From the sequence record OP795442: a stretch of 64,000 nt of DNA. The stretch is one strand, 5' to 3'. This document shows positions 22,286 through 63,170 of this stretch, piece by piece. The translations under genes were made by a program, and so were the position numbers. Within the stretch, counting starts at the first letter, position 1; every line of letters begins with the position of its first letter. Origin of the DNA: Escherichia phage A7_1. The notes below the pieces were generated by a model that saw only the letters and a program-made list of their open reading frames with translations, was not told the DNA's origin and made no database searches.

Positions 22286-22447
22286 ATTATGAAAAAATAC
22301 AACAGCGAAGATCGGTCATGAACACTATGTTGTTAATTTTTACAACAAGACTCCAAAAAAGTATTTAAATAACTTAAATCGATTTTAATACATAGAAAAT
22401 ACCTATGGACCAGATCTGACCCATAGGGTATACCTTAATGTGAAATT

Positions 22448-23026
22448 TTATTCATTTCCTCGATATTTTTGAATCGCGATCGAAGTCCTTGGTTCAGCCA
22501 GGCCAGTTCCGTATGCATACCATTTACCAGTGAGTGTTTTTCGAGCACCGTAGGACCCAATCTCCATATCGTCACAATAAACATCGTAACCGATCGGAGT
22601 CTTAATTAAAAAGAGTACGTCACGAGGAATCCCTAAGAGGGTAAACATCGATATGGCATCTTTTGCGATCTCGTGAGAAATCTTCTCTGCATTCTTTTTA
22701 CTACTGGCACTTCTAAACAGTTCCATCTTTAAGAAGATATTGAAATGAATATCATCAAGAACCATCTCATCACGAAAGCATGGGGTCACAGCCATCCAAC
22801 TGCCATCTTCCAACTTCCCCTCTTTGTCGAGTTGAAGGAATGATTGCTCTGCGGAAGCTACTGCGTATTTCCCGTTCTGGACAATGCGAAGATCAGTAAC
22901 ATCTTCGGGGCATGTATGGTCCATAGCATCATCATCCACATAGCTTGGGACAACCTTATCATTGAAACCTTTACATTTCCACCAACTATGAGCATCAATA
23001 AACAATGTGAAGTCAATGTTTGACAT
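22448..23026 (-). CDS. hypothetical protein (192 aa)
   Basis: Probable start at MSNIDF, just after upstream stop. Confidence 0.45.
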   Translation of the reverse strand: MSNIDFTLFIDAHSWWKCKGFNDKVVPSYVDDDAMDHTCPEDVTDLRIVQNGKYAVASAEQSFLQLDKEGKLEDGSWMAVTPCFRDEMVLDDIHFNIFLKMELFRSASSKKNAEKISHEIAKDAISMFTLLGIPRDVLFLIKTPIGYDVYCDDMEIGSYGARKTLTGKWYAYGTGLAEPRTSIAIQKYRGNE

Positions 23027-23027
23027 T

Positions 23028-23630
23028 TTAGCCTCGCTTACCATTCTGGAATGCACGTTTAGTGATTTTTGACATAACCATCAGGTCTTCCAGTGAAGTG
23101 CTCGGATGATGCTTATTCAAGTAGGCTTCCACAGCACCAACCAGATCAGAAAGCTCTACCAACTCCATGATCTTGCATTTTTGTTTGGCTGCATCCTTAA
23201 GTTCATCAAGTTCTTCTTGAATCTTAGTGATCTCTCCAAGTTCTCCACGAGGGAAAGTATCCAGATGATAACCTGGTTTTTGTTCTTCGATCTCTTCATG
23301 TCCGACAACACGAAATTTTCCGGCAGCGAAACGCCAAACACCTTCAAAATACACAATGTAATGTTCCGACTCTACAATGAAGATAGTGTCGAAATTTTTA
23401 AATTTGAAAAATCCTTCAACAAGATTATCTTCTGTACTGAAACTTCCTAAGAAGTTGAGTTCTTGCTCCGTATGAAATTCGATAACCATATTTTCGTTCT
23501 GGAGTTTCGTCAGCAATTTTAAAATTTTCATTTTCTCTCCTCTTATGGGCAACACCGTGGAGATCTTCCACAGAAGAATTGCCAATTGGTTTCTGAATCT
23601 TTGTGGTTTACAAAACCTATCCTTCCGCAC
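23028..23630 (-). CDS. hypothetical protein (200 aa), weak MazG-like helix
   Basis: EELDELKDA...ELVELSDL segment; too short for a firm family call. Confidence 0.4.
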   Translation of the reverse strand: MRKDRFCKPQRFRNQLAILLWKISTVLPIRGEKMKILKLLTKLQNENMVIEFHTEQELNFLGSFSTEDNLVEGFFKFKNFDTIFIVESEHYIVYFEGVWRFAAGKFRVVGHEEIEEQKPGYHLDTFPRGELGEITKIQEELDELKDAAKQKCKIMELVELSDLVGAVEAYLNKHHPSTSLEDLMVMSKITKRAFQNGKRG

Positions 23631-24031
23631 CCTTTCCCACTACAAACCGCTTCACGAGGATGATAGTCTATACTGCAAGAGTGGGGATGATCAAATGCCT
23701 CCTGTATTTCAACACAGAGTCTACTTAACCAAGCGAACATTTTTGGCATAGAAGCTTCAAGGAGTTTAAGTTCATCGACCGTAGGTTTGTCTTTCTCCAT
23801 GAAGAAGTCATTTATCTCGGAAAACAAAATCACGTTTTGAACTATACCGCTGCTTACCTTGTAAGAGAACTCCTCAGTAAGTCTCACAGTAACTTCCTCT
23901 ATCAATTCTTTTTCATTATCTTGATCTTTTGCTAATCTTTCTTCAATCCATCGGATAACGAAGAATCTTTCTCTCTGAACATCCATGTTCAAAGTATTGA
24001 TTATTTTTTCATAGATTAGGTTTCCTTCCAT
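23543..24031 (-). CDS. hypothetical protein (162 aa), Cys-rich C-terminus
   Basis: Contains KPTVDELKLLEASMPKMF and a C-terminal Cys cluster. Confidence 0.45.
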   Translation of the reverse strand: MEGNLIYEKIINTLNMDVQRERFFVIRWIEERLAKDQDNEKELIEEVTVRLTEEFSYKVSSGIVQNVILFSEINDFFMEKDKPTVDELKLLEASMPKMFAWLSRLCVEIQEAFDHPHSCSIDYHPREAVCSGKGCGRIGFVNHKDSETNWQFFCGRSPRCCP

Positions 24032-25143
24032 ACCTTGTCTTGTGCCTCCAGGATAAGTTTTTCAACAATCTTCAGATCTGTTTTCTTTGGTAAGCTCGAT
24101 TGCTTATAAAGAACATCTGTGATCATTTTATCTTTTTCTTCAGCCCACTCAACAATTTCTTCATAGCGGTATTCACCATTTCGGATTGCGAGGAGTTCTT
24201 CAGCGTCTGGTCGATTCACTAAAACTTTACCTTCTGTGAGGATTTCTTCACCCATCCGAAGAAGCCGGACCAAATGCATAGCATGTTTAGTGTCGTAACC
24301 GAACTTCTCTTCCAGTTCATGACGCTTCTCGTTACGATTCTTAACCCACTCCCAGTAGTTGTGGTGTTTCTCCTTGGCCCATTTATGATCGTCAGCACAA
24401 TACTTAACAATCATCAGAGTCTTGCCTCTTTTAACTTCCTCTGGGATTTCTTCATAGTCTAGCTTACGGATAGAACCATCTTTATTAAACATTGGTTGAA
24501 CATCTTCACTACGATCTTCTACAACACCGTAAATGTTACCACCGTAAGGAACCAAAGTACAGAAGCCTTCCATGTTTTTAAATTTACGAACAAAGTCTTC
24601 GTACTTCAACTCACCTTCTCCGAGATAGCTCTGCACCAGACGGAAATAGTCAAATTGAGTTGGTGGCTCTTTTGGTTGCGGATTATTAATGTGTTTGTTG
24701 TGACCCTTGATCCGCTTTAACTGAGACATTGCATAACCACTGAAGCGAAATGCAACTTCACGAGACAGTAAGGAGTAGAAATGTTCTTTCATCTCTTTCC
24801 AAGCTTCGTGCTCGTACAATGTGGCTTTCGGATCAGTAAAACCCAGTTCAATGATATTTGGGTTCATCTTCGAAAACAGTTGAAGGAAAGTTCCCAATTC
24901 GTAGATCTTGGCATCCTCTTCACCAGGGATGTTTAATTCAGTAACCTCTTTGAATGGGGTACGAACCACATTTGGGGTTGCAACAAAAACCCCACGGATA
25001 TCAATATCACTACCTTCGTTATTCGTACCATACGCATGAGATCCTGCCAGACTCAACATCAGTACCTTCGCTACGTCTGGATGCTTTTCCATCTTCTCTA
25101 CGATACTTTTTACCTTTCCAGCACTCACAACTGAATTTTCCAT
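24016..25143 (-). CDS. Pol-beta-superfamily nucleotidyltransferase-like protein (375 aa)
   Basis: N-terminal GSHAYG...SDIDIRG motif (GS-x-D-x-D). Confidence 0.45.
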   Translation of the reverse strand: MENSVVSAGKVKSIVEKMEKHPDVAKVLMLSLAGSHAYGTNNEGSDIDIRGVFVATPNVVRTPFKEVTELNIPGEEDAKIYELGTFLQLFSKMNPNIIELGFTDPKATLYEHEAWKEMKEHFYSLLSREVAFRFSGYAMSQLKRIKGHNKHINNPQPKEPPTQFDYFRLVQSYLGEGELKYEDFVRKFKNMEGFCTLVPYGGNIYGVVEDRSEDVQPMFNKDGSIRKLDYEEIPEEVKRGKTLMIVKYCADDHKWAKEKHHNYWEWVKNRNEKRHELEEKFGYDTKHAMHLVRLLRMGEEILTEGKVLVNRPDAEELLAIRNGEYRYEEIVEWAEEKDKMITDVLYKQSSLPKKTDLKIVEKLILEAQDKVWKET

Positions 25144-25233
25144 TTATCCTCCAATCATGTAAGTCACACAAGCCAACCCAGTTGGCCTGTTTAATCTTTA
25201 TAAAGTTTACGCAGCTTGTGCAATCTTTTTTAT

Positions 25234-25629
25234 TTATAGGCATTTCACACCATAAATGATCATCAACACAACAAGTGTCAACGTATAAAAGAAGCTCCCG
25301 TAAAGTCCATAACTGGTAATTTTAAGCTTTTTCTTAAAGCACATCATTGTACTATAAATTACACCAGTCCAGTGAATCACTAAAATCGCGGTGGCAATAT
25401 CTGAAACATTACCCGCCCAAAGCATCAGAGAGTATGAGAGGTACATTGCAAAACCTGATAGCAAGAATGTAAACAAATAACCAATTACACTTTTCTTTTT
25501 CTGATCTACGATTTTATTTTTCATGGTATCGATATTCAGATTGTAGTAGGCAACCACCACCATCTGGATAATCAACCCCAGGATAAAGAAAGAGATCAGT
25601 GTAACGTATTCAAAAATTGGTGCAGTCAT
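25234..25629 (-). CDS. hypothetical integral membrane protein (131 aa)
   Basis: Four hydrophobic segments. Confidence 0.5.
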   Translation of the reverse strand: MTAPIFEYVTLISFFILGLIIQMVVVAYYNLNIDTMKNKIVDQKKKSVIGYLFTFLLSGFAMYLSYSLMLWAGNVSDIATAILVIHWTGVIYSTMMCFKKKLKITSYGLYGSFFYTLTLVVLMIIYGVKCL

Positions 25630-26027
25630 TATAATTTCTCCTCAATAATTTCAGAAATGAGATTCGAGATCTCGAAAGTTTCTAACTCTTCGACGTGTGA
25701 CAAGCGCCGGAGGCGCTCGATAACAAAGTCTTTCTTCACAAACACATCCGACAGATGCTCAATGTCCTGCTTACCACGCATTCCGCTAACCAACTGCTTG
25801 TATCGGATGAGTTCAATATACTCTTCTTTGGACATTACTGTCAAGCGTTCATCTGCACAAATATGCAAAAATACTTGCTTGCTGTCCCAGTCGAACCCAT
25901 TGTGCACTGCTTCTACTTCACGGTGAGGTGTCCCGCCAATTGTTACATGACCAACCTCAACGGGGATAGATACCTGATCATCAGGTCGGCACTGCTGCAA
26001 CTCCTCAATCAATTCAGATACTTTCAT
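25629..26027 (-). CDS. hypothetical protein (132 aa)
   Basis: Track ORF. Confidence 0.5.
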   Translation of the reverse strand: MKVSELIEELQQCRPDDQVSIPVEVGHVTIGGTPHREVEAVHNGFDWDSKQVFLHICADERLTVMSKEEYIELIRYKQLVSGMRGKQDIEHLSDVFVKKDFVIERLRRLSHVEELETFEISNLISEIIEEKL

Positions 26028-26029
26028 AG

Positions 26030-26485
26030 TTACCCCTGTTTAAGCTTAAAAGATTTAAAGGCTTCGATAAAGTCCATTTCTTTTTGCGTGTATTTGTGGT
26101 CAATTGTATCAGCGAAAAGAGGGCAACGACCATCAACCAACTTCACATCCCACAGATGTTGAGGGAGAATAAATGCAATGGCTGTAAGTGCACCATTCAA
26201 AGAATCATTCTCCTCGCAGAAAAATGCGTAAGGAATCTTCTCTATGTTTGGAGCTAAAAATCCTTCTGCAAAATTAAGCATCTTAGATTGATAGCCTCCG
26301 TTCAACAAGATCATTGTTTGGTCTTTGCTTTGCCACTGATCTACAAGGTTGTATCTGTCATCATATCGATCGGCATAGGCAAAGCCATAATGACCTACAA
26401 GGTTTGCTGCTGCATGTGCTGCTTGGATACCTGCTTGGATTCCCATCATGTAGCTGTTTACCAATACGTACATCCGAGTTTTCAA
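26030..26485 (-). CDS. hypothetical protein, possibly peptidyl-tRNA hydrolase (Pth2)-like
   Basis: N-terminal MGIQAGIQAAHAA pattern recalled from PTH2; weak. Confidence 0.3.
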   Translation of the reverse strand: MKTRMYVLVNSYMMGIQAGIQAAHAAANLVGHYGFAYADRYDDRYNLVDQWQSKDQTMILLNGGYQSKMLNFAEGFLAPNIEKIPYAFFCEENDSLNGALTAIAFILPQHLWDVKLVDGRCPLFADTIDHKYTQKEMDFIEAFKSFKLKQG

Positions 26486-26802
26486 TTCTTACCTCCGAAA
26501 ATTCTTTTTGCAAATTTTTCATTACCTAACGTCATGTTGTAGAAAACTATAATTGAATAGACAATCCACGCAAGGACATAAAATAAAATCAAGAAAGGCC
26601 AGCCCACAAACCAAAACACTGTCATTATTAACCAGCCCGTCATAAGGAGTTTATAATTAACATTCCCGTGATTTAAAGGGTCAAGTAAGTTACTGTTCTC
26701 TGGCAGGGTGATACGAAACCCACCTTGACGAAGCTTGATCAAAAAGAACCAAGCAGCAGAACTTATAATGCAACATAAAATATATATCAGTAATCCTGTC
26801 AT
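26482..26802 (-). CDS. hypothetical membrane protein (106 aa), tandem paralog A
   Basis: FLLIKLRQGGF motif shared with neighbour; two TM segments. Confidence 0.5.
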   Translation of the reverse strand: MTGLLIYILCCIISSAAWFFLIKLRQGGFRITLPENSNLLDPLNHGNVNYKLLMTGWLIMTVFWFVGWPFLILFYVLAWIVYSIIVFYNMTLGNEKFAKRIFGGKN

Positions 26803-27128
26803 TTTTTAACTCCGAAGATCTTAGATAGTAATTTATCATTCCCGATAGTTACACCACAAAAACTTTTTACTCCGTATACTAGATACGACCCGATTGTAAC
26901 ACAGATAATGATCGGATAAACAAGATACCAAAAGAATGTTGCAAGTATCCACCCTGCCATCACCATACGTAAATTTACATTTTCGTTATTCAGTGGCTCC
27001 AGGATATAAATATCCTCACAATCTTTTGGGAAGGGGATGTTAAAACCCTTCTGTCGTAATTTGATCAGTAAGAACCAAAGCGGGCAACTGATAAAACAAC
27101 CGATCAAATAACCTTCAACCATTTTCAC
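26799..27128 (-). CDS. hypothetical membrane protein (109 aa), tandem paralog B
   Basis: FLLIKLRQKGF motif shared with neighbour. Confidence 0.5.
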   Translation of the reverse strand: MKMVEGYLIGCFISCPLWFLLIKLRQKGFNIPFPKDCEDIYILEPLNNENVNLRMVMAGWILATFFWYLVYPIIICVTIGSYLVYGVKSFCGVTIGNDKLLSKIFGVKK

Positions 27129-28413
27129 TCTCCTTCAATTTGTCAAGATATTGTGTAACGTATCTTACTTTTACATTTCGGATTCTATTCTTGATCTCTT
27201 CTGGACGTCCAGCAAATCTTTCAGAGATCTCTTTACTTTCTTTTGAGATTGCAACGCTGTTTTGAACAATCCCCGCCAGTGCTGAGAATAATACCAAAGG
27301 TTGAGTGTAGCTGTCAAACATTTTTTCAGGACCCCGACCACGAGCATCACAGATGCAAGCATCAATAAATTCAGAGAGGAATGCTTGGTCCTTTTCACCA
27401 CGTAAGGCTACTAACAAGTCATAAACTTTCTTTGGCTTCATTTCTTTGATACGGTGAAGTCGTGTATGATGCTCAGTTACAGCTAAAGCCAACTTCTTCC
27501 AATTATTGGGGACACCAAAGCGATCACAAACTTGTTCAGTTAACTTGATACCATGTTCTTCGTGACCGTGCAGTTTACCCGTTACCCAATAAATACATTT
27601 ACCTAAGTCGTGACACAGAACTGCCCACTTCACAGCTTCACTTGCACGAGTCGCCTGGGCATAATCCATGCAAAGTAAAGTGTGAACAAATGCATCACCT
27701 TCAGGATGGTGCTCCTTGGGTTGAACAACATCGTATAAATCCACAAGCTCAGGAAATTCCCCCAGTTGAGTCAACATACGGATCATTACCGAAGGTTTAT
27801 TCATTTCTGACTGATCACTAAAGCATTTCTTAATCTCTGCAAATTTACGCTCTTTTGGTAATGCACTTAAATCAACATCCTTGCACATTCCCCAAGTGTC
27901 AGGATCAATTGTAAACTCGCCTCCGTATCTGGCATGTAATCTGGCTAATCGATATACACGTAAAGGGTCTTCGATAAATGCCTTAATAGATACACAACGT
28001 AACCGACGAAGTTCAATATCAAGTGCACCACCGCAAGGGTCAATAATTTCACCCGTAGAAATATCCTTAGCGATCGCATTAATGGTCAAATCTCTTCGCA
28101 TCAGGTCTTGTTCGATTGTAACGTCTGGAGAGAACACAACTTCGAAGTCGTGATAACCAGGACCTGTTGATCTTTCTGTCCGAGCAAGAGCATACTCTTC
28201 CTTTGTCTCGGGGTGAAGGTACACAGGGAAAGCTGCACCAACCTTAGTAAATCCCTTCTCAATCATTTCTTCATGGGTCGCTCCAACTACAACGTAGTCA
28301 CGATCCTTGCTTTCAACACTCATTAGTTCATCGCGAACTGCACCACCTACCAAGTAAACTTTCATTCCTTCTTCTTCCATTCTTTCCAATTCTGCATGCC
28401 CGCTCATAGCCAT
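27115..28413 (-). CDS. cca: tRNA nucleotidyltransferase (CCA-adding enzyme) with HD domain
   Basis: LVGGAVRDELM and DRD head motifs; HHPEGD and LCHDLGK HD-domain motifs. Confidence 0.8.
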   Translation of the reverse strand: MAMSGHAELERMEEEGMKVYLVGGAVRDELMSVESKDRDYVVVGATHEEMIEKGFTKVGAAFPVYLHPETKEEYALARTERSTGPGYHDFEVVFSPDVTIEQDLMRRDLTINAIAKDISTGEIIDPCGGALDIELRRLRCVSIKAFIEDPLRVYRLARLHARYGGEFTIDPDTWGMCKDVDLSALPKERKFAEIKKCFSDQSEMNKPSVMIRMLTQLGEFPELVDLYDVVQPKEHHPEGDAFVHTLLCMDYAQATRASEAVKWAVLCHDLGKCIYWVTGKLHGHEEHGIKLTEQVCDRFGVPNNWKKLALAVTEHHTRLHRIKEMKPKKVYDLLVALRGEKDQAFLSEFIDACICDARGRGPEKMFDSYTQPLVLFSALAGIVQNSVAISKESKEISERFAGRPEEIKNRIRNVKVRYVTQYLDKLKESENG

Positions 28414-28598
28414 CCCCTTTCTTTATACCCTTTTGTAAATCCTGATTCCCAATCTTGAAATTGCTCCGGCATGGTGTTTGGATTATACGGGTTGTTTCTC
28501 TTGAACATCCCAAACTTGAATCCAGCGGCTCGGCCCTTCTCGTATGCTGAACTGCTTTTTCTTGTCATACTCTTTCTCCTCTTAAATTTAAAGACCAA
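28404..28598 (-). CDS. hypothetical basic protein (64 aa)
   Basis: Track ORF; start uncertain. Confidence 0.3.
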   Translation of the reverse strand: MVFKFKRRKSMTRKSSSAYEKGRAAGFKFGMFKRNNPYNPNTMPEQFQDWESGFTKGYKERGWL

Positions 28599-28894
28599 TC
28601 TTTTATTTCTTCTTTCCAGTTTGTATTTCTCTTAATGTCTTGCTTTTGACCGCGAAGATAGTTAATGATCTCAAGCGGGTCTTGCTTAACAAAAGAAATA
28701 TTGTCGATCGGGCACTCAACTAACTTAAGCATCCTTTCAAAACGATTATACTCATCTTCCGACTTTGGTGCAACAGGAATAACATCATAATCTTCAAGAT
28801 TATCGAGAGTTTCAAGAGTCACCTTCATCTCGTAGCCTTCTAATTTCTTTGTCTTAATACCAAATACTCTTCGAAAGTAAATGTAATATTTCAT
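28565..28894 (-). CDS. hypothetical protein (109 aa)
   Basis: Track ORF. Confidence 0.4.
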   Translation of the reverse strand: MKYYIYFRRVFGIKTKKLEGYEMKVTLETLDNLEDYDVIPVAPKSEDEYNRFERMLKLVECPIDNISFVKQDPLEIINYLRGQKQDIKRNTNWKEEIKDWSLNLRGERV

Positions 28895-28944
28895 CGTATT
28901 CTCCTAGTTGATGACTATCATTATACACATCCCCGAATTCAAGT

Positions 28945-28973
28945 CAACAAAAAAGGCCACCCGAAGGTGACCT
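28945..28973 (-). terminator. intrinsic terminator
   Basis: Hairpin with GAA loop followed by T-run on minus strand. Confidence 0.5.
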
Positions 28974-28979
28974 TTAAAT

Positions 28980-30827: not shown

Positions 30828-31145
30828 TTAAATTCCGATTAAATATTTAAACTTCCCGTCGTTCTCTGCGATCTTGTGGATTACATAGAACCAATTTTCA
30901 ATTCCGTCTTCATCTTCCTCTTTCACACGATCACCAGTTTTCAACTCAACCTCGGAAACGTACTCCTTACTTTCAAGGAAATACTTCCACTGAACCATGT
31001 CTTTAAAATTACAGATTAGTTTATTTTTGCCATCAGTCGTCCAAAGGTCCTGATTGACCCACATACCAACAACGAAATTCTTTTCTTTCTTAGGACGACC
31101 AAGTGCATAAGTGTTGTTTAACATCTTTGCTTTATCTAAGACCAC
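30828..31145 (-). CDS. hypothetical protein (105 aa)
   Basis: Track ORF. Confidence 0.5.
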   Translation of the reverse strand: MVLDKAKMLNNTYALGRPKKEKNFVVGMWVNQDLWTTDGKNKLICNFKDMVQWKYFLESKEYVSEVELKTGDRVKEEDEDGIENWFYVIHKIAENDGKFKYLIGI

Positions 31146-31863
31146 GTTTTGACTCCAAGTTAACTAAGAAACTCTCAAGCACTGCGATGTTGTCTTCTTT
31201 CCAAAGATTAAGTGTTCTTACACCATTCTTCTTTGCCAGATTGACTGCTGTTGCAGTGCCGCCTTTAGGATTACCCGTCTTTGTTTCCTTTGCGTAGTAT
31301 ATCACAAATTTACTTTGCATCAAGTAGGCATTTGAAAGATTTTTACCAAAAATTTGGTGTACGTTTCTTTCGTGTAATTTCCTTGCCCCTTGACTCAACT
31401 TGTCCCATCCACCATGAACTTCCTTTATCCATTCCCATCGCATTTCTGTATGTTCTGGAAATTCTTTATCAATCGTGTTCAGGGAGATATTATACAGATC
31501 TTTAAGTCCTTGTCCACCTTTAAAGTTGTCCCAAGGAACATATATCTCTGCAAGTTTGCTCGGTGATTGAGTCATATTGCAATCTTCATGAAACTTCTGC
31601 ATACCTCTTTGGAAAGCTGCATCTGCACCATCTGCACCGCCAGATCGTAATGTATATCCGACCCTTGCTAATCTCCAACCCGCATCTTCCATAATTTTTA
31701 ATACTTCTTCAGGGGCCTCCCTTGAACCTATTCCTGTATAAGCTGGCACTTTAACCTCCTTCATCTTCAGTTGACCAGTACCCATTAACTTTTTTCCAAA
31801 GTCTTTGGTTATCTGATCCCCTGAATCTTTTAGTTGTAGGTTTGTTTTCATCATACTTGCCAT
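31132..31863 (-). CDS. DprA/SLOG-like Rossmann-fold protein (243 aa)
   Basis: GIGSR...RSGGADGADAAFQRG...GGTATAVNLAKKNG pattern. Confidence 0.4.
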   Translation of the reverse strand: MASMMKTNLQLKDSGDQITKDFGKKLMGTGQLKMKEVKVPAYTGIGSREAPEEVLKIMEDAGWRLARVGYTLRSGGADGADAAFQRGMQKFHEDCNMTQSPSKLAEIYVPWDNFKGGQGLKDLYNISLNTIDKEFPEHTEMRWEWIKEVHGGWDKLSQGARKLHERNVHQIFGKNLSNAYLMQSKFVIYYAKETKTGNPKGGTATAVNLAKKNGVRTLNLWKEDNIAVLESFLVNLESKRGLR

Positions 31864-53518: not shown

Positions 53519-54256
53519 TTACATACCCTCCAGGTTTGCTTCAAAATAAGTGATTGGCTTCATGATCTTGCCATTCTTATCTTTAAATACTACACGATCC
53601 ATACCATCACCACCTTTTACGATGCTTCCCTTTACACCTTGATAACGGTTACGGTTACGCAGTTCAATCTGTTCAGCTTCCAAACGCAACATGGCATCAA
53701 GATCAAAATCAGCTTCTGCAAAAAAGTAATACGTCTTGTAGAAACATTCCGTAAATTCTTTCACGGTTGGGATCTTGGAATCATTTGAATCCAAAACCTC
53801 ATTTAAAGCACGACGAGCATTAAAGTTGGAGTTCTGCATGATTGCAACAACCGCCATAACGATCCCGTTTGTATTGTCACTCTCGATAAATTGATCAAGA
53901 GTTCGATAAAGCGAAGTCAGATTATACGTACCAACATTGTCAGCAGGACAGATGTTTTCAGAACCACCTTTCAGGAAGTTGTAATATGATCCAACTACAA
54001 ACAAGTCGCAAAGTGCATCTATGATTTCCTTACGATTCTTTTTAGTTAAACCAAGATCATAAAGTTCATTGTACTCTTCCATAACAAGAGTTTTTTGGAA
54101 TTTTGAAACATCTTCAGAGAAGTCATGAAAACCACGAGCAACAAAATTCCAATTTTTTACTCGCTCTGCTGCTTCCCGAAAGAAGCTATTGCCCTTAACA
54201 TCAATCATCTCGGAAATAAAGGTTTTTTGATCAGTACTCAATTCATTGTATTTCAA
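53519..54256 (-). CDS. hypothetical protein (245 aa)
   Basis: Track ORF. Confidence 0.5.
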   Translation of the reverse strand: MKYNELSTDQKTFISEMIDVKGNSFFREAAERVKNWNFVARGFHDFSEDVSKFQKTLVMEEYNELYDLGLTKKNRKEIIDALCDLFVVGSYYNFLKGGSENICPADNVGTYNLTSLYRTLDQFIESDNTNGIVMAVVAIMQNSNFNARRALNEVLDSNDSKIPTVKEFTECFYKTYYFFAEADFDLDAMLRLEAEQIELRNRNRYQGVKGSIVKGGDGMDRVVFKDKNGKIMKPITYFEANLEGM

Positions 54257-54773: not shown

Positions 54774-56153
54774 TTAAACCTCCTCTGCAATTTTACGAAG
54801 AAGATCCAGAAGAGAGTTCGATGCTTCGATCACTTCTTCCAGGCTGTTGGCTACGCTCTTATCAAAGCGAAGTTCAACAAACTTATAATTTAAACGAGGC
54901 AAAAACAGAGATTTCAGATCTTTGTTCTCTGCATCAGTAATGTCATTAGCCTTGATCGTAATAATCTGCCCAATGAAATACTCACTCGGTTTTTTACGAA
55001 GAGCATCAGTAAGTCCAGATCCTGCACCAACTTCAAGAAGTCCATCACGAGTACGGCAGATCAGAGATCCAATAAGCCCAGGCTTCTTTTTGTGAGGCGT
55101 TGTCGCCACAACTTCAAGATCAACATCGAACTCATTTTTAAGTTTTATCCCTTTCTTAGTTTTGTTATCTCCCCAAGGCATATTCGCCTCTTTAAGAACC
55201 GTACCCTCTTTCTTCTGCAAACGCATTTCAATAAAGTGGTCGATTGCCTCTTTGAGGGTATTGATCTCACGGCCCTTGATAAAGTCAAAATGCTCGCGGT
55301 CTTCTACCAACAAAGCCAATCCTTGTGCAGACATACGACGATCTTTGTAAGGTGTTTTGGATTTGCGCTCAATGTACTCACCCATTGTAACTCGGTCCCA
55401 AATAACGATTCGTACACGATCACGGTCGATATCTTCAGGATCTTGGTTCAGATAACCATTGCCTTCCGCACGTTCCATAACACCATGCAAACCATTCGGA
55501 TCAATTACCAAACCTTCGCCGTGGACAACATACGGCTGTGGAATCCCATCGTCATCTACAGCAGCTTTCATCAGGGCATTCTCAACATGTTCTGGAGATC
55601 GGAAGTTAAGTTCTTTACCGGAGCGAGAACGATACACAACCTGATCAGGCCAAACCATAATGTCAGCATACAGACCATCCATCTTTTCGTCAGAGAAAGC
55701 ACCTTCATAGTTGAAATTACGAAGGAGATCCTCTTTGAAAAGGGTATAGCTCTGGTAAGGTGGCTCTGTAACCAGATCCTTCCAAACCTTGTTGGTCAGA
55801 GTAGTCTGAATACCACATTCAAGATCGCGGTTGATGATCTTCAGCAGTGTTTCTGGTTCTTCACACAGTCGAACGGCATTCGTAAGAACATCACGACCTT
55901 CATGCCCAGTGTACATACGACTCGCAACATCGTTTACGATAAGATCAATACTCTCTTGTAGATTGCGACTTCCTTGATGGAACGTTGCAGGATCAACCTT
56001 GAAATTACGAACAAAAAAGTTTAGCTCTTTGCTGTATGTAACTCGAAACACCTCTCGCAAACCATCATTATCCGCATGACTACGTAAGATCGCTTCTTTT
56101 TCTTTTGTTGAACCAGTGGATGCCAGTTGTTCGATAATCTTAGTTACGCTCAC
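54774..56153 (-). CDS. ATP-dependent DNA ligase (T4 gp30-like)
   Basis: Adenylation motif KMDGL; N-terminal IEQLASTGSTKEKEAIL and DLECGIQTTLTNKVW resemble T4 ligase from memory. Confidence 0.8.
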   Translation of the reverse strand: MSVTKIIEQLASTGSTKEKEAILRSHADNDGLREVFRVTYSKELNFFVRNFKVDPATFHQGSRNLQESIDLIVNDVASRMYTGHEGRDVLTNAVRLCEEPETLLKIINRDLECGIQTTLTNKVWKDLVTEPPYQSYTLFKEDLLRNFNYEGAFSDEKMDGLYADIMVWPDQVVYRSRSGKELNFRSPEHVENALMKAAVDDDGIPQPYVVHGEGLVIDPNGLHGVMERAEGNGYLNQDPEDIDRDRVRIVIWDRVTMGEYIERKSKTPYKDRRMSAQGLALLVEDREHFDFIKGREINTLKEAIDHFIEMRLQKKEGTVLKEANMPWGDNKTKKGIKLKNEFDVDLEVVATTPHKKKPGLIGSLICRTRDGLLEVGAGSGLTDALRKKPSEYFIGQIITIKANDITDAENKDLKSLFLPRLNYKFVELRFDKSVANSLEEVIEASNSLLDLLRKIAEEV

Positions 56154-61320: not shown

Positions 61321-61403
61321 GCGCGGGTGTATCTCAACGGTCTTCTAAACCGTCGTTAATCGAGTAATTGGAGTATGAAGGTTCGAGTCCTTTCTCCCGC
61401 GCT
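61321..61403 (+). ncRNA. tRNA-like element, cloverleaf unresolved
   Basis: Perfect GGTTCGAGTCC T-arm and GCGCGGG/CCCGCGC ends but no consistent D or anticodon arm. Confidence 0.25.
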
Positions 61404-61420: not shown

Positions 61421-61492
61421 GGCCCTGTAGCTGGACGGTTCAAGCAAGCGACTCATAATCGCCAGACGGTGGTTCGATTCCACCCAGGGCCA
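61421..61492 (+). tRNA. tRNA with CAU anticodon (Met, or Ile2-type)
   Basis: 7-bp acceptor GGCCCTG/CAGGGCC, loop CTCATAA, T-arm GGTGGTTCGATTCCACC, encoded CCA. Confidence 0.8.
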
Positions 61493-61628
61493 CCATATGA
61501 AGTCGGGTCGCTCCCGATAAGTCGTCGGACTGATGTTCCCTGACTACGAGTTCCCTCAACGATAACGACGTAGATCACAGCAGAAACGGCGCACCCTATT
61601 TCATTTCTTAATACATTTCAATAAGTTC

Positions 61629-61657
61629 TTGACATAATCCTATTATACTGCTAATAT
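61629..61657 (+). promoter_or_regulatory. sigma70-like promoter (TTGACA 61629-61634, TAATAT 61652-61657)
   Basis: 17-nt spacer. Confidence 0.55.
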
Positions 61658-61678
61658 AGTTATATCGACTGAATTGAG

Positions 61679-62059
61679 GTGTTTATGGCTAAAGCTGAAA
61701 TCGTTACTCGAAAACGCGGTCGGCCTACTACAGAGGAAAGCATTGCAATCAATACTGAGAGAGCAATTCTTCATGCTCGTTCCGAGTTTGCAAGACTTAC
61801 TCCTCAAGCAATTAAAACTCTGGAAGGTCTACTGACTTCCGGTACAGAGAAAGTTAAAGAAACTACTGCGAAGTATATTCTTGAGCAAGCTGAAAAGGCA
61901 AACAATCTGTACACGATGGAAGATAATGAAGAGGATCTGGCAGGAGGAACTACTTCTGCAAATTCAGAAACTCATCAAGGCCCTTCTGATGCATTTAAAG
62001 ATGCTATTCCATTAACTACTCAGATTCGTGAGTATAAAATGGCAGAAGGTGAAGATTAA
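61679..62059 (+). CDS. hypothetical protein (126 aa) with N-terminal RKRGRP basic motif
   Basis: ORF with RBS GAGGTG. Confidence 0.5.
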   Translation: MFMAKAEIVTRKRGRPTTEESIAINTERAILHARSEFARLTPQAIKTLEGLLTSGTEKVKETTAKYILEQAEKANNLYTMEDNEEDLAGGTTSANSETHQGPSDAFKDAIPLTTQIREYKMAEGED

Positions 62060-62297
62060 GGCTCGCAAGGGCCTTTACTAAGAAGTTCTCTTTAAGGTAG
62101 TTGCTTGGTGTAATTTTTCGGCAGATGGCTGCAACCATCCTATCGATAACTTATAGTTAGTGCTGCAAACACTGGCTACCTTAAAGAGAATTTAACTCGT
62201 CGAATAAGGAAGATGCTGATCTCAAAGTGAGGTCACTTACCGCAAGGGGTGTGCATAGACTCCCGCTTCCGAATAGACTATGTGGCGAGATGTATTT

Positions 62298-62376
62298 GGG
62301 GACGTGGCAGAGCGGTCGAATGCGCCTGACTGTAAATTAGGTATCCCACACGGTGGTTCGAATCCATCCGGCCCCA
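62298..62376 (+). tRNA. tRNA-Tyr (GUA), class II
   Basis: Loop CTGTAAA, D-loop GAGCGG-type, T-arm GGTGGTTCGAATCCATC, encoded CCA; one A-G mismatch in acceptor stem. Confidence 0.65.
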
Positions 62377-62382
62377 CCAAAT

Positions 62383-62455
62383 TTTCCGTTAGGCTTACAG
62401 GATAAGATTCCCACAACGTATCGTTGTGATACTGGTTCGAATCCAGTACGGAAAC
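62383..62455 (+). ncRNA. tRNA-like element with non-canonical anticodon arm
   Basis: Perfect acceptor and T-arm, but central 7-bp hairpin CACAACG-TAT-CGTTGTG replaces a canonical anticodon loop. Confidence 0.3.
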
Positions 62456-62582
62456 CAAATTAAGCCGTGATGTGATGTAATCACTGACCTCTTTGAAGGA
62501 TCATGGCATTTTATACAAAAACCTGAATAATTTAGGTTTTAATTCCTGGGGTTCGTAGCCCTATTACTAAGAGGACTTAACT

Positions 62583-62792
62583 ATGTTTACTATTAAAATT
62601 ATTGATATCGATGGAAATGAGACTGGTGTTTCAACAAGGCACTATAGATGGTACTCAAAAATGAATATTTTTGATCTGGATGGTGGTGAATCTGTTTCTG
62701 TACCACCAAAAAGTCGTGCTTATGTAATGAATGACAAAGGAATAACCATCGGTAGATACACAAATACAGCGGATCAACGCGTTCTTAATTAA
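62583..62792 (+). CDS. hypothetical protein (69 aa)
   Basis: ORF with RBS AAGAGGA; ends 1 nt before tRNA-Gly. Confidence 0.45.
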   Translation: MFTIKIIDIDGNETGVSTRHYRWYSKMNIFDLDGGESVSVPPKSRAYVMNDKGITIGRYTNTADQRVLN

Positions 62793-62793
62793 A

Positions 62794-62865
<72 letters not shown>

Positions 62866-62967
62866 CCAAACCTCTATCCATCTGACGCGTTTATGGGGTT
62901 GACCTGATCACTCTTCTCCTAATCTCGTGTGAAGACACCATGATTGTTGGGATGGATAAACTTCTTT

Positions 62968-63039
62968 TGGGGATTAGCCAAGCGGTAAGGCATCGGATTT
63001 TGATTCCGACATTCACTGGTTCGATTCCAGTATCCCCAG
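62968..63039 (+). tRNA. tRNA-Gln (UUG)
   Basis: Perfect stems; loop TTTTGAT; U1-A72 start as in E. coli tRNA-Gln (from memory); encoded CCA. Confidence 0.9.
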
Positions 63040-63047
63040 CCAATTAA

Positions 63048-63121
<74 letters not shown>

Positions 63122-63170
63122 CCAATTTACCCTCATATAATAACAATAATATAATCTCCTCTCCTTCGCC

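What the first reader, a model, noticed from the sequence alone, without database searches (positions are those of the whole stretch)
24016..28413. Cluster of tRNA-maintenance candidates: CCA-adding enzyme, possible Pth2-like hydrolase, Pol-beta nucleotidyltransferase
A full-length CCA-adding enzyme with HD domain (27115..28413) lies near a possible peptidyl-tRNA hydrolase-like ORF (26030..26485) and a GS-x-D-x-D nucleotidyltransferase (24016..25143), in a phage that also carries its own tRNAs. Together they could maintain or repair tRNAs against host nucleases that attack tRNA 3' ends or anticodon loops.
Basis: inference. Interest (0 to 1): 0.5.

Follow-up and report, generated by a model that had tools for sequence, protein, structure and literature searches.

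The report
Phage tRNA-end repair gene cassette
This E. coli phage carries one operon with a CCA-adding/repair enzyme, an RNA-repair nucleotidyltransferase (RlaP) and a peptidyl-tRNA-hydrolase-like protein. The same three genes sit side by side in unrelated phages, so they probably work together to keep the ends of tRNAs usable during infection.

Summary
All three ORFs exist at the stated coordinates on the minus strand. ORF 27115-28413 is an E. coli-type class II CCA-adding enzyme with an HD phosphohydrolase domain: 43% identical to E. coli Cca, all motifs kept. ORF 24016-25143 is a member of Pfam PF10127 (RlaP), a family shown in vitro to add 1-2 nucleotides to 3'-OH ends of damaged tRNA. ORF 26030-26485 has a confident Pth2 fold, but it falls below Pfam's PTH2 cutoff and lacks the Pth2 catalytic lysine.

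The three genes lie in one predicted 6.5-kb transcription unit (28947 to 22402). That unit also encodes a 192-aa SerRS/PylRS-like class II synthetase core.

The whole unit is syntenic in Certrevirus phages. A compact CCA, Pth2-like, RlaP cassette recurs in a Rheinheimera phage with no annotated RNA ligase and no credible tRNA gene, and a CCA-RlaP pair recurs in a Vibrio phage.

I found no RNA ligase or Pnkp in this phage genome, and all five of its tRNA genes already encode CCA.

Most likely this is a ligase-independent module that maintains tRNA acceptor ends. A counter-defence role is plausible but untested. The general idea is already published for jumbo phages, so interest is moderate.

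The parts
28920..28975 (-). Intrinsic-terminator-like hairpin (28975-28952, 10 bp plus a T run), followed at once by a near-consensus sigma-70 promoter TTGACT-16-TATAAT (28947-28920). Proposed start of the transcription unit.
   Evidence: These are consensus matches only. An AGGAG ribosome-binding site and the ATG at 28894 follow.
28565..28894 (-). orf109, first gene of the unit, function unknown (phrog_12008).
   Evidence: Conserved in CR9 at 46% identity.
28404..28568 (-). Small basic ORF (54 aa from the ATG at 28568). It has ATGA start/stop overlaps with both neighbouring genes.
   Evidence: Read directly from the sequence.
27115..28413 (-). Class II CCA-adding tRNA nucleotidyltransferase fused to an HD phosphohydrolase domain (E. 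coli Cca type). Alternative start codons at 28407 and 28365.
   Evidence: It is 43% identical to E. coli Cca over 357 aa (E 4e-88). GGAVRD, DRD, RRDLTINA, EDPLRV, HHPEGD, LCHDLGK and HGH are all conserved.
26799..27128 (-). Small membrane protein (phrog_17692), paralogue A.
26482..26802 (-). Small membrane protein (phrog_17692), paralogue B, a tandem duplicate of A.
26030..26485 (-). Pth2-fold protein (phrog_3668 'hydrolase'), from a divergent family outside Pfam PTH2. TTG start.
   Evidence: AF2 model pLDDT 91. The top 10 Foldseek PDB hits are all Pth2 or Bit1, and BFVD returns phage Pth2 proteins. 11 of 26 family members touch Pfam PTH2, all below the cutoff. The family has 2,538 cluster representatives.
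25629..26027 (-). orf132, function unknown (phrog_12566).
   Evidence: 67% identical in CR9.
25234..25629 (-). Membrane protein, 131 aa (phrog_12739).
24016..25143 (-). RlaP-family (PF10127) Pol-beta nucleotidyltransferase, predicted to add 1-2 untemplated nucleotides to RNA 3'-OH ends.
   Evidence: Family biochemistry is in PMC12776372. The NTase domain aligns to T4 NrdC.11.
23543..24031 (-). orf162 with a Cys-rich C-terminal tail (...CSGKGCG...FFCGRSPRCCP). The same tail is fused to the synthetase-like core in homologues P0231 and P0236.
23028..23531 (-). 167-aa protein with a MazG/PRA-PH-like C-terminal domain (weak match).
22448..23026 (-). 192-aa minimal class II aminoacyl-tRNA-synthetase-like catalytic core (SerRS/PylRS-like). 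Motif 2 (TPCFRDE) and motif 3 (GTGLAEPR) are kept. It has no tRNA-binding domain.
22402..22427 (-). Terminator-like hairpin (11 bp plus a T-rich tail) 20 nt after the stop of the synthetase-like gene. Proposed end of the unit.
   Evidence: Consensus match only.
61421..63124 (+). The phage's tRNA genes (Met, Tyr, Gly, Gln, Pro). All have a genomically encoded CCA. Context only, about 33 kb from the cassette.
   Evidence: No further tRNA genes in the rest of the genome of the close relative A5-4.

Best explanation
A conserved early or middle operon of a Septuagintavirus (Vequintavirinae) phage encodes a ligase-independent toolkit that keeps the acceptor (3') end of tRNAs chargeable during infection.

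Proposed division of labour:
- The HD domain of the Cca-type enzyme removes 2',3'-cyclic or 3'-phosphates, and its class II head rebuilds missing C-C-A.
- RlaP adds one or two untemplated nucleotides to a 3'-OH end that has been trimmed further than the CCA enzyme can handle, or to other broken RNA ends.
- The Pth2-fold protein hydrolyses an ester-linked blocking group (peptidyl or N-acylated aminoacyl) from the terminal adenosine, so the tRNA can be recycled.
- The co-transcribed minimal class II synthetase-like core forms an aminoacyl-adenylate for an acceptor that is not yet known.

Shown here: family or fold membership of each protein, the operon-like arrangement, and the recurrence of the trio in unrelated phages.

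Inferred: the substrates, the order of the steps, and whether the selective pressure is ordinary RNase and translation stress or tRNA-targeting defence systems.
For: - Family and fold assignments: CCA plus HD; RlaP; Pth2 fold.
- RlaP biochemistry: adds 1-2 NMP to RNA 3'-OH, prefers cleaved-tRNA mimics, does not act on DNA or protein (PMC12776372).
- One predicted transcription unit, from a terminator-plus-promoter pair at 28975-28920 to a terminator at 22427-22402, with overlapping start and stop codons.
- All 11 larger genes are syntenic in Cronobacter phage CR9. Related layouts occur in L010, L016 and L019.
- Independent recurrence in Rheinheimera phage Barba31A (Barbavirus, 84.6 kb): CCA+HD, then the Pth2-like gene overlapping it by 4 nt, then RlaP, with nothing in between.
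- Independent recurrence in Vibrio phage R16F: overlapping CCA+HD and RlaP genes wedged between the portal and terminase genes.
- In marine phage contigs the Pth2-like gene lies next to Thg1, a tRNA 5'-end repair polymerase.
- No RNA ligase or Pnkp found in this genome, and none annotated in Barba31A.
- Barba31A has no credible tRNA gene, and all five tRNA genes here already encode CCA. The cassette therefore points to repair of existing, mainly host, tRNAs rather than maturation of phage tRNAs.
- tRNA 3' ends are proven immune targets: Cas12a3 (PMC12851939, PMC13594972) and CapRel (PMC9712102).
Against: - No activity was measured for any of these proteins.
- The Pth2-like family misses Pfam's cutoff, and by alignment register it has Gln/His/Ala where S. 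solfataricus Pth2 has Lys18.
- The operon also holds three small membrane proteins, a MazG-like protein and unknown ORFs with no obvious tRNA link.
- The Pth2-like gene is not always next to tRNA-related genes: NADAR in L011, and none in L012.
- RlaP was defined by association with RNA ligases, and its demonstrated benefit was shown in combination with ligation.
- Most of the syntenic loci belong to one broad phage lineage, so they are not independent observations.
- The ligase search covered the larger ORFs with Pfam, PHROGs and one tblastn query. It was not an exhaustive profile scan.
Confidence: 0.6

Rival explanations
1. Counter-defence version of the same module. The cassette exists specifically to reverse immune attacks on the tRNA acceptor end. 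Examples are tail cleavage by Cas12a3 or Cas13, pyrophosphorylation by CapRel/toxSAS, nucleotide addition by MenT or AbiEii, and acetylation of aminoacyl-tRNA by GNAT toxins.
For: CCA-tail attack is an established anti-phage strategy. The cassette behaves like a mobile accessory unit, inserted in different genomic contexts in Barba31A and R16F. Related marine loci carry Acb1 nearby. In my paper searches I found no report of a phage CCA enzyme tested as a counter-defence, so the idea is neither confirmed nor excluded.
Against: There is no experimental link. E. coli's own Cca already repairs CCA ends, so the added benefit is unclear. No component hits PADLOC families apart from generic HD similarity. 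The known E. coli defences against related phages were not examined.
Confidence: 0.3
2. Coincidental neighbours. The three genes are independent auxiliary genes that share a crowded early region with nucleotide-metabolism genes. The CCA enzyme supports general tRNA turnover, RlaP tails some other RNA, and the Pth2-fold protein acts on a non-tRNA ester.
For: The genes are separated by membrane and unknown ORFs in this phage. The region is a long array of same-strand auxiliary genes such as NrdAB, NrdDG, PhoH, Clp and ThyX. The Pth2-like gene lies beside NADAR in L011.
Against: The same trio is packed with overlapping or near-abutting genes in an unrelated phage, and the CCA-RlaP pair overlaps in another. 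Order is conserved across genera at 30-67% identity.
Confidence: 0.2
3. Classical anticodon-loop heal-and-seal repair, as with T4 Pnkp and Rnl1 against PrrC. RlaP would restore a lost wobble nucleotide before ligation.
For: This is the published model for RlaP (PMC12776372; PMC7824862). A relative, Salmonella phage SSBI34, carries an annotated Rnl2-type RNA ligase next to a macro-domain-like protein annotated as a phosphatase. A distant homologue of the synthetase-like gene lies 6 kb from a PF09414 RNA ligase.
Against: The SSBI34 ligase has no homologue in the A5-4 genome or the window. The scanned larger ORFs contain no RNA ligase, RtcB or Pnkp, and the only ligase is an ATP-dependent DNA ligase at 54774-56153. 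Using the host's RtcB would require 3'-phosphate ends, which RlaP products lack.
Confidence: 0.1
4. The 432-aa enzyme is a poly(A) polymerase that marks host RNAs for decay, not a CCA-adding enzyme.
For: The top PDB sequence hits carry the depositors' name 'Poly A polymerase', and the shared head domain is Pfam PolyA_pol.
Against: NCBIfam scores 383 bits to the Cca model against 82 bits to PcnB. Identity to E. coli Cca is 43% along head, neck and the HD domain.
Confidence: 0.03

Closest known systems
E. coli Cca (multifunctional CCA addition/repair protein, class II nucleotidyltransferase plus HD domain)
   Same: 43% identity over 357 aa. The head motifs (GGAVRD, DxD, RRD, EDxxR) and the His/Asp residues of the HD domain are all conserved.
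   Different: It scores below the NCBIfam equivalog cutoff (383 against 451 bits). The C-terminal ~70 residues diverge. It is phage-encoded and embedded in a cassette with RlaP and a Pth2-fold gene.
RlaP (PF10127): Pseudomonas PfRlaP and PaRlaP, and T4 NrdC.11
   Same: Passes the Pfam cutoff. It keeps the G-S...D-x-D motif and further invariant acidic residues (D77, E99) plus a conserved C-terminal helical region. The NTase domain aligns to T4 NrdC.11.
   Different: It is not next to any RNA ligase, and I found none in the genome. Its constant partner here is a CCA-adding enzyme. It has an insertion of about 120 aa relative to the Pfam model, which matches only profile positions 9-140 of 249.
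Archaeal and eukaryotic peptidyl-tRNA hydrolase Pth2 (S. solfataricus 1xty, M. jannaschii 2zv3, human Bit1/PTRH2 1q7s), and phage Pth2 genes described in jumbo phages
   Same: Same fold: Foldseek probability 1.0, target-normalised TM-score 0.65-0.74. It shares the Q..HA helix motif, the conserved Trp, and an acidic residue at the Asp86 position.
   Different: 11-19% identity. It is below the Pfam PTH2 cutoff. Lys18 is replaced by Gln/His/Ala and Asp86 by an invariant Glu. It carries about 40 extra C-terminal residues. It forms its own large family (phrog_3668; 2,538 representatives).
Phage RNA-repair gene sets described for jumbo phages (Iyer et al. 2021, PMC7824862), and T4 Pnkp with Rnl1
   Same: Same component families (RlaP, CCA-adding enzyme, PTH2, Thg1) and the same proposed purpose of restoring damaged tRNAs.
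   Different: That work ties RlaP to RNA ligases. Here the phage is about 142 kb, not jumbo, I found no RNA ligase or Pnkp, and the three genes form one cassette centred on the 3' end.
SerRS and PylRS catalytic domains, and truncated class II synthetase paralogues
   Same: The 192-aa ORF has the class II core fold (Foldseek E 1e-9 to PylRS and SerRS). The family profile hits SerRS at 1e-6. Motifs 2 and 3 are present.
   Different: It has no N-terminal tRNA-binding arm and no anticodon-binding domain. It is less than half the size of a real SerRS. The acceptor substrate is unknown.

Membership tests
Class II CCA-adding enzyme, E. coli Cca type | Head-domain motifs: A (GGxVRD...DxD), B (RRD) and D (EDxxR) | tested here: met
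   GGAVRD, DRD, RRDLTINA and EDPLRV are aligned and invariant with E. coli Cca.
Class II CCA-adding enzyme, E. coli Cca type | C-terminal HD phosphohydrolase domain with its His/Asp metal ligands | tested here: met
   Pfam HD 2.4e-8. HHPEGD, LCHDLGK and HGH are conserved.
Class II CCA-adding enzyme, E. coli Cca type | Score above the curated NCBIfam equivalog cutoff (PRK10885) | tested here: not met
   383.3 bits against a cutoff of 451. It is still far above PcnB at 82 bits.
Class II CCA-adding enzyme, E. coli Cca type | Template-independent addition of exactly C-C-A to tRNA | not testable with these tools
   Needs an enzyme assay.
RlaP (PF10127) | Pfam gathering score | tested here: met
   69 bits against a cutoff of 23. 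All listed full-length homologues, and 119 of the 120 listed in all, carry PF10127.
RlaP (PF10127) | Pol-beta NTase catalytic carboxylates (three strictly conserved acidic residues) | tested here: met
   G34, S35, D46 and D48, plus D77 and E99, are invariant in 22 sequences. D46, D48, D77 and E99 align to acidic residues of T4 NrdC.11.
RlaP (PF10127) | C-terminal helical domain forming a cleft with the NTase domain | tested here: inconclusive
   A conserved helical-looking segment DTKHAMHLVRLLRMGEEIL is present. No structure was predicted, and no RlaP structure is in the PDB copy.
RlaP (PF10127) | Genomic association with an RNA ligase, which is the origin of the name | tested here: not met
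   I found no RNA ligase, RtcB or Pnkp in the window or the rest of the A5-4 genome. The neighbours are Cca and a Pth2-fold gene.
Pth2 peptidyl-tRNA hydrolase (PF01981) | Pfam gathering score | tested here: not met
   16.4 bits against a cutoff of 23. 11 of 26 family members hit PTH2, all below the cutoff.
Pth2 peptidyl-tRNA hydrolase (PF01981) | Pth2 alpha/beta fold | tested here: met
   Model pLDDT 91. The top 10 PDB matches are all Pth2, with E 2e-5 to 9e-4 and probability 1.0.
Pth2 peptidyl-tRNA hydrolase (PF01981) | Active-site residues reported for S. solfataricus Pth2 (Lys18, Asp86, Thr90). The identity of these residues is from my memory of Fromant et al. 2005, not checked here. | tested here: not met
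   By the HMMER register (Q22/H25 aligned to Q21/H24), Lys18 corresponds to Q17, which varies as Q/H/A. Asp86 corresponds to the invariant E91, and Thr90 to S95 (S or A).
Pth2 peptidyl-tRNA hydrolase (PF01981) | Hydrolysis of peptidyl-tRNA | not testable with these tools
   Needs an enzyme assay.
Class II aminoacyl-tRNA synthetase (SerRS-like) | Catalytic core with motif 2 (fRxE) and motif 3 (GxGxGf[DE]R) | tested here: met
   TPCFRDE and GTGLAEPR are invariant or nearly so in 31 sequences. Fold match to PylRS and SerRS.
Class II aminoacyl-tRNA synthetase (SerRS-like) | tRNA-binding domain (SerRS N-terminal coiled coil, or an anticodon-binding domain) | tested here: not met
   The protein is 192 aa and consists of the core only.
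T4-type tRNA heal-and-seal repair (Pnkp plus Rnl1 or Rnl2) | Phage-encoded polynucleotide kinase-phosphatase and RNA ligase | tested here: not met
   None detected.

The most novel reading that the evidence does not exclude
The CCA+HD, Pth2-like and RlaP genes form a dedicated, mobile, ligase-independent pathway for repairing the tRNA acceptor end.

- The Pth2-fold enzyme strips whatever is esterified to A76.
- The HD domain removes terminal phosphates or pyrophosphates.
- RlaP replaces nucleotides lost beyond the CCA, such as the discriminator base.
- The CCA enzyme then rebuilds the tail.

Phages would carry it to defeat immune effectors that disable tRNA 3' ends: Cas12a3 or Cas13 tail cleavage, CapRel pyrophosphorylation, MenT or AbiEii nucleotide addition, and GNAT acetylation. 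In phages, RlaP's real partner would then be the CCA-adding enzyme rather than an RNA ligase.
Probability: 0.25. Interest if true: 0.75.

Novelty: new variant of a known kind. Interest (0 to 1): 0.5.

Why it matters
Bacterial immunity that disables tRNA 3' ends has only recently been recognised (Cas12a3, CapRel, MenT). In my paper searches I found no report of a phage answer to it.

A compact, recurrent cassette that combines a CCA-rebuilding enzyme, an RNA 3'-end extender and a Pth2-fold esterase is an obvious candidate. It can be tested directly with phages that infect E. coli K-12.

The finding also bears on three smaller questions:
- RlaP's biological partner may not always be an RNA ligase.
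- A large uncharacterised Pth2-fold family (more than 2,500 sequence clusters) gains a functional context.
- A widespread 190-aa minimal class II synthetase core in phages is flagged for study.

If the cassette is only translation housekeeping, the finding is ordinary. The component genes are already deposited, partly annotated, in relatives.

Tried and rejected
- Foldseek against afdb50 was unavailable. I used PDB and BFVD instead.
- Sequence-only PDB searches gave nothing useful for the Pth2-like ORF or for RlaP.
- PADLOC gave only generic HD/Cas3 similarity for the CCA enzyme.
- The window's 459-aa ligase (54774-56153) is an ATP-dependent DNA ligase, not an RNA ligase.
- The 'RNA ligase' of relative SSBI34 has no homologue in this phage. 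tblastn found only a 53-aa N-terminal similarity.
- Pfam and PHROG scans of about 30 larger ORFs across the window and the rest of the A5-4 genome found no RNA ligase, RtcB or Pnkp.
- The poly(A) polymerase reading of the CCA enzyme is rejected.
- The MntA-antitoxin reading of RlaP is rejected: 19 bits against a cutoff of 60.
- The idea that the CCA enzyme matures phage tRNAs lacking CCA is mostly rejected, because all five tRNA genes encode CCA. One aberrant tRNA-like element without CCA remains.
- Burroughs and Aravind 2016, the paper that named RlaP, could not be read.
- orf132 gave no informative match.

Full report
**What the window is.** The region is 94.5-96.8% identical at the DNA level to Escherichia phages A73, W70, A5-4, vB_EcoM-LTH01 and UPEC06. 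These are ~140-kb myoviruses of the subfamily Vequintavirinae. One source names a member 'Septuagintavirus sv54'. The window corresponds to roughly positions 81.6-145 kb of A5-4.

**The CCA-adding enzyme (27115-28413).**
- It hits Pfam PolyA_pol head (3.3e-19) and HD (2.4e-8), PHROG 'tRNA nucleotidyltransferase' (4.7e-132), and NCBIfam 'multifunctional CCA addition/repair protein' (1.2e-114) over its whole length. The NCBIfam score of 383 bits is below the equivalog cutoff of 451.
- It is 43% identical to E. coli Cca over 357 residues (E 4e-88).
- The class II head motifs (GGAVRD, DRD, RRDLTINA, EDPLRV) and the HD-domain His/Asp residues (HHPEGD, LCHDLGK, HGH) are all conserved.
- A poly(A) polymerase reading is rejected. 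PcnB scores only 82 bits, whereas the alignment to E. coli Cca runs through the HD domain.
- The start codon is ambiguous. 28413 gives the longest ORF. 28407 forms an ATGA overlap with the upstream stop. 28365 matches Met1 of E. coli Cca and the A5-4 gene call.

**The nucleotidyltransferase (24016-25143).**
It belongs to Pfam PF10127, RlaP (69 bits, cutoff 23). Of 5,165 homologues, all listed full-length ones carry that domain.
- G34-S35, D46-x-D48, D77 and E99 are invariant, and so is a C-terminal helical-looking segment.
- The NTase domain aligns with T4 NrdC.11, which a recent preprint places in this family.
- That preprint (PMC12776372) shows that Pseudomonas RlaP adds one or two NMPs to the 3'-OH of RNA. 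It does not act on DNA or protein, and it prefers the broken end of a cleaved-tRNA mimic. It can restore aminoacylation of a tRNA that lost one nucleotide, provided the tRNA is then ligated.

**The Pth2-like ORF (26030-26485).**
- By sequence it only touches Pfam PTH2 below threshold (E 0.011, 16.4 bits).
- An AlphaFold2 model built on 26 homologues is confident (pLDDT 91, pTM 0.87).
- Its ten best matches among solved structures are all Pth2 enzymes: M. jannaschii MJ0051, S. solfataricus Pth2, human Bit1/PTRH2, A. fulgidus AF2095 and P. horikoshii PH1539. E-values are 2e-5 to 9e-4, probability 1.0, target-normalised TM-score 0.65-0.74, and identity 11-19%.
- Against viral models it matches many phage proteins named peptidyl-tRNA hydrolase.
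- PTH2 is the only Pfam family that recurs across the family: 11 of 26 members, all below the cutoff.
- The family keeps the Pth2-like Q..HA helix motif, a conserved Trp and an invariant Glu.
- By the HMMER register the invariant Glu (E91) sits where S. solfataricus Pth2 has Asp86, but Gln/His/Ala sits where it has Lys18. The catalytic role of those two Pth2 residues is from my memory of the literature, not checked here.
- The fold is therefore shown, and the enzyme activity is inferred.
- The family is large, with 2,538 cluster representatives at E<=1e-3 in an exhaustive profile search. It is PHROG 3668, 'hydrolase'.

**Arrangement in the window.**
- Between the upstream DNA methyltransferase gene and orf109 lies a terminator-like hairpin. 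It is followed at once by TTGACT-16-TATAAT, an AGGAG ribosome-binding site and an ATG (28975-28894).
- The next strong terminator-like hairpin on that strand is at 22427-22402.
- Twelve tightly packed genes lie in between, several with overlapping start and stop codons. In transcription order they are: orf109, a 54-aa ORF, Cca, two paralogous small membrane proteins, the Pth2-like gene, orf132, a membrane protein, RlaP, orf162, a MazG-like protein, and a 192-aa ORF.
- These are consensus matches, not proof of transcription. They make a single 6.5-kb unit the simplest reading.

**A fourth tRNA-flavoured gene.**
- The 192-aa ORF (22448-23026) is annotated 'seryl-tRNA synthetase' in some relatives.
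- Its model (pLDDT 93) matches PylRS and SerRS catalytic domains (E ~1e-9). Its family profile hits SerRS at 1e-6.
- Class II motif 2 (TPCFRDE) and motif 3 (GTGLAEPR) are conserved in 31 sequences.
- It has no tRNA-binding domain, so it is a minimal adenylate-forming core with an unknown acceptor.
- In two homologues it is fused to the Cys-rich tail that the window's orf162 carries as a separate gene. This links those two genes.

**Is the clustering meaningful?**
- All eleven larger genes of the unit occur in the same order in Cronobacter phage CR9 (Certrevirus) at 30-67% identity. Related layouts appear in metagenomic contigs L010, L016 and L019. These belong to one broad lineage and are not independent.
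- Rheinheimera phage Barba31A is independent (genus Barbavirus, 84.6 kb). There a Cca-type enzyme with HD domain, a Pth2-like gene (33% identical, E 2e-22) and an RlaP gene follow each other with a 4-nt overlap and a 9-nt gap and nothing in between.
- Vibrio phage R16F is also independent. There overlapping Cca+HD and RlaP genes sit between the portal and terminase genes.
- In marine phage contigs the Pth2-like gene lies beside or near Thg1, a tRNA 5'-end repair polymerase.
- Exceptions exist: NADAR is the neighbour in L011, and no tRNA-related gene is nearby in L012.
- In the phage collection the Cca-like protein matches 423 records, RlaP 207 and the Pth2-like protein 112.

**What is missing.**
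- RlaP is named for its association with RNA ligases, but I found none.
- The only ligase in the window (54774-56153) is an ATP-dependent DNA ligase.
- The Rnl2-type 'RNA ligase' of the relative SSBI34 has no homologue in the window or the rest of A5-4.
- Pfam and PHROG scans of the larger ORFs of the whole genome found no RNA ligase, RtcB or Pnkp.
- Barba31A's depositors, who used Pfam, annotated none either.
- Classical anticodon-loop heal-and-seal repair is therefore not supported for this phage.

**Relation to the phage's own tRNAs.**
- The genome has only the five tRNA genes in the window, and all five encode their CCA. The phage Cca is therefore not needed to mature them.
- Barba31A carries the cassette without any credible tRNA gene. 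Its single ARAGORN call lies inside a peptidase gene.
- The cassette most likely acts on existing, mainly host, tRNAs.

**Mechanism, with steps marked.**
- Shown: family or fold of each protein, the operon-like layout, and recurrence of the trio.
- From published work on the families: RlaP extends RNA 3'-OH ends by 1-2 nt (PMC12776372).
- From general knowledge: Cca rebuilds CCA, the E. coli Cca HD domain has phosphatase and 2',3'-cyclic phosphodiesterase activities, and Pth2 hydrolyses the peptidyl-tRNA ester.
- Inferred: the three cooperate on the tRNA acceptor end by removing an esterified blocking group, healing the phosphate, replacing nucleotides lost beyond CCA, and rebuilding CCA.
- I give this maintenance reading 0.6.
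- Whether the pressure is routine RNase and translation stress or immune attack is open. tRNA 3' tails are proven immune targets: Cas12a3 (PMC12851939, PMC13594972), an RsCas13 system and CapRel pyrophosphorylation (PMC9712102). My searches found no report testing phage Cca as a counter-measure.

**Comparison with what is known.** Iyer et al. 2021 (PMC7824862) already list RlaP, CCA-adding enzyme, Thg1 and PTH2 as RNA-repair equipment of jumbo phages, and they tie RlaP to ligases. The present case differs in four ways: the phage is not jumbo, I found no ligase, the three genes form one recurrent cassette, and the Pth2-fold member belongs to a divergent family outside Pfam PTH2. In GenBank relatives the genes are annotated piecemeal as 'CCA tRNA nucleotidyltransferase', 'nucleotidyltransferase' and 'hypothetical' or 'hydrolase'.

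**Verdict.** The functional idea is partly supported: 3'-end maintenance yes, anticodon repair no, counter-defence untested. It is a new variant of a known kind, of moderate interest (0.5).

Noticed in passing
window 61323-61401 (+): Rfam calls a tRNA here (33.9 bits, cutoff 29) that default ARAGORN misses. It has a 7-bp acceptor stem, a UCU anticodon, almost no D-arm and a long variable arm. Unlike the five normal tRNA genes, it is not followed by CCA, so if it is functional it would need a CCA-adding enzyme.
   Followed up: partly
window 62383-62456 (+): A tRNA-like element sits directly after tRNA-Tyr. It has a perfect T-arm (GGTTCGAATCC) and an 8-nt anticodon loop. Only relaxed ARAGORN settings find it. 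It may be a decayed tRNA or a frameshift-suppressor-like tRNA.
   Followed up: partly
window 22448-23026 and 23543-24031 (-); P0231/P0236; L019 7001-7708: The minimal class II synthetase-like core is fused in some phages to the Cys-rich '...CGGSPRCCP' tail that orf162 carries here as a separate gene. This domain fusion links the two genes.
   Followed up: partly
window 12536-16125 (-): Three consecutive ORFs (234, 415 and 410 aa) have RCC1-like beta-propeller repeats.
   Followed up: no
L013 22926-24834 (Salmonella phage SSBI34): This relative carries an annotated Rnl2-type 'RNA ligase' (469 aa) next to a protein annotated 'phosphatase' whose sequence looks like a macro domain. Neither has a homologue in the Septuagintavirus genome.
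   Followed up: partly
L002 11938-13278 (Cronobacter phage CR9); L001 12100-13441 (UPEC06): The CR9 Cca gene is annotated with a truncated N-terminus, although tblastn shows a full-length reading frame. In UPEC06 the gene is split into a 'fragment' plus a small ORF, with a ~10-nt length difference in the DNA alignment.
   Followed up: partly
Pectobacterium phages DU_PP_I and DU_PP_IV (hits H47, H48): The RlaP gene matches in two pieces spread over ~2.1 kb, which suggests an insertion such as a homing endonuclease or intron inside the gene.
   Followed up: no
L007 13596-14126; L008 11911-12426; L012 10629-11129: Marine phage contigs that carry the Pth2-like gene also carry Acb1 (an anti-CBASS nuclease family) and a PrkA/DUF444/SpoVR trio within a few kb.
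   Followed up: no
window 23028-23531 and 53519-54256 (-): There are two separate MazG/PRA-PH-like pyrophosphohydrolase candidates in the window, one of them inside the cassette operon.
   Followed up: no
window 31132-31863 (-): A DprA-like protein (phrog_768, 1.2e-63) sits between the NrdG and Clp-protease genes.
   Followed up: no
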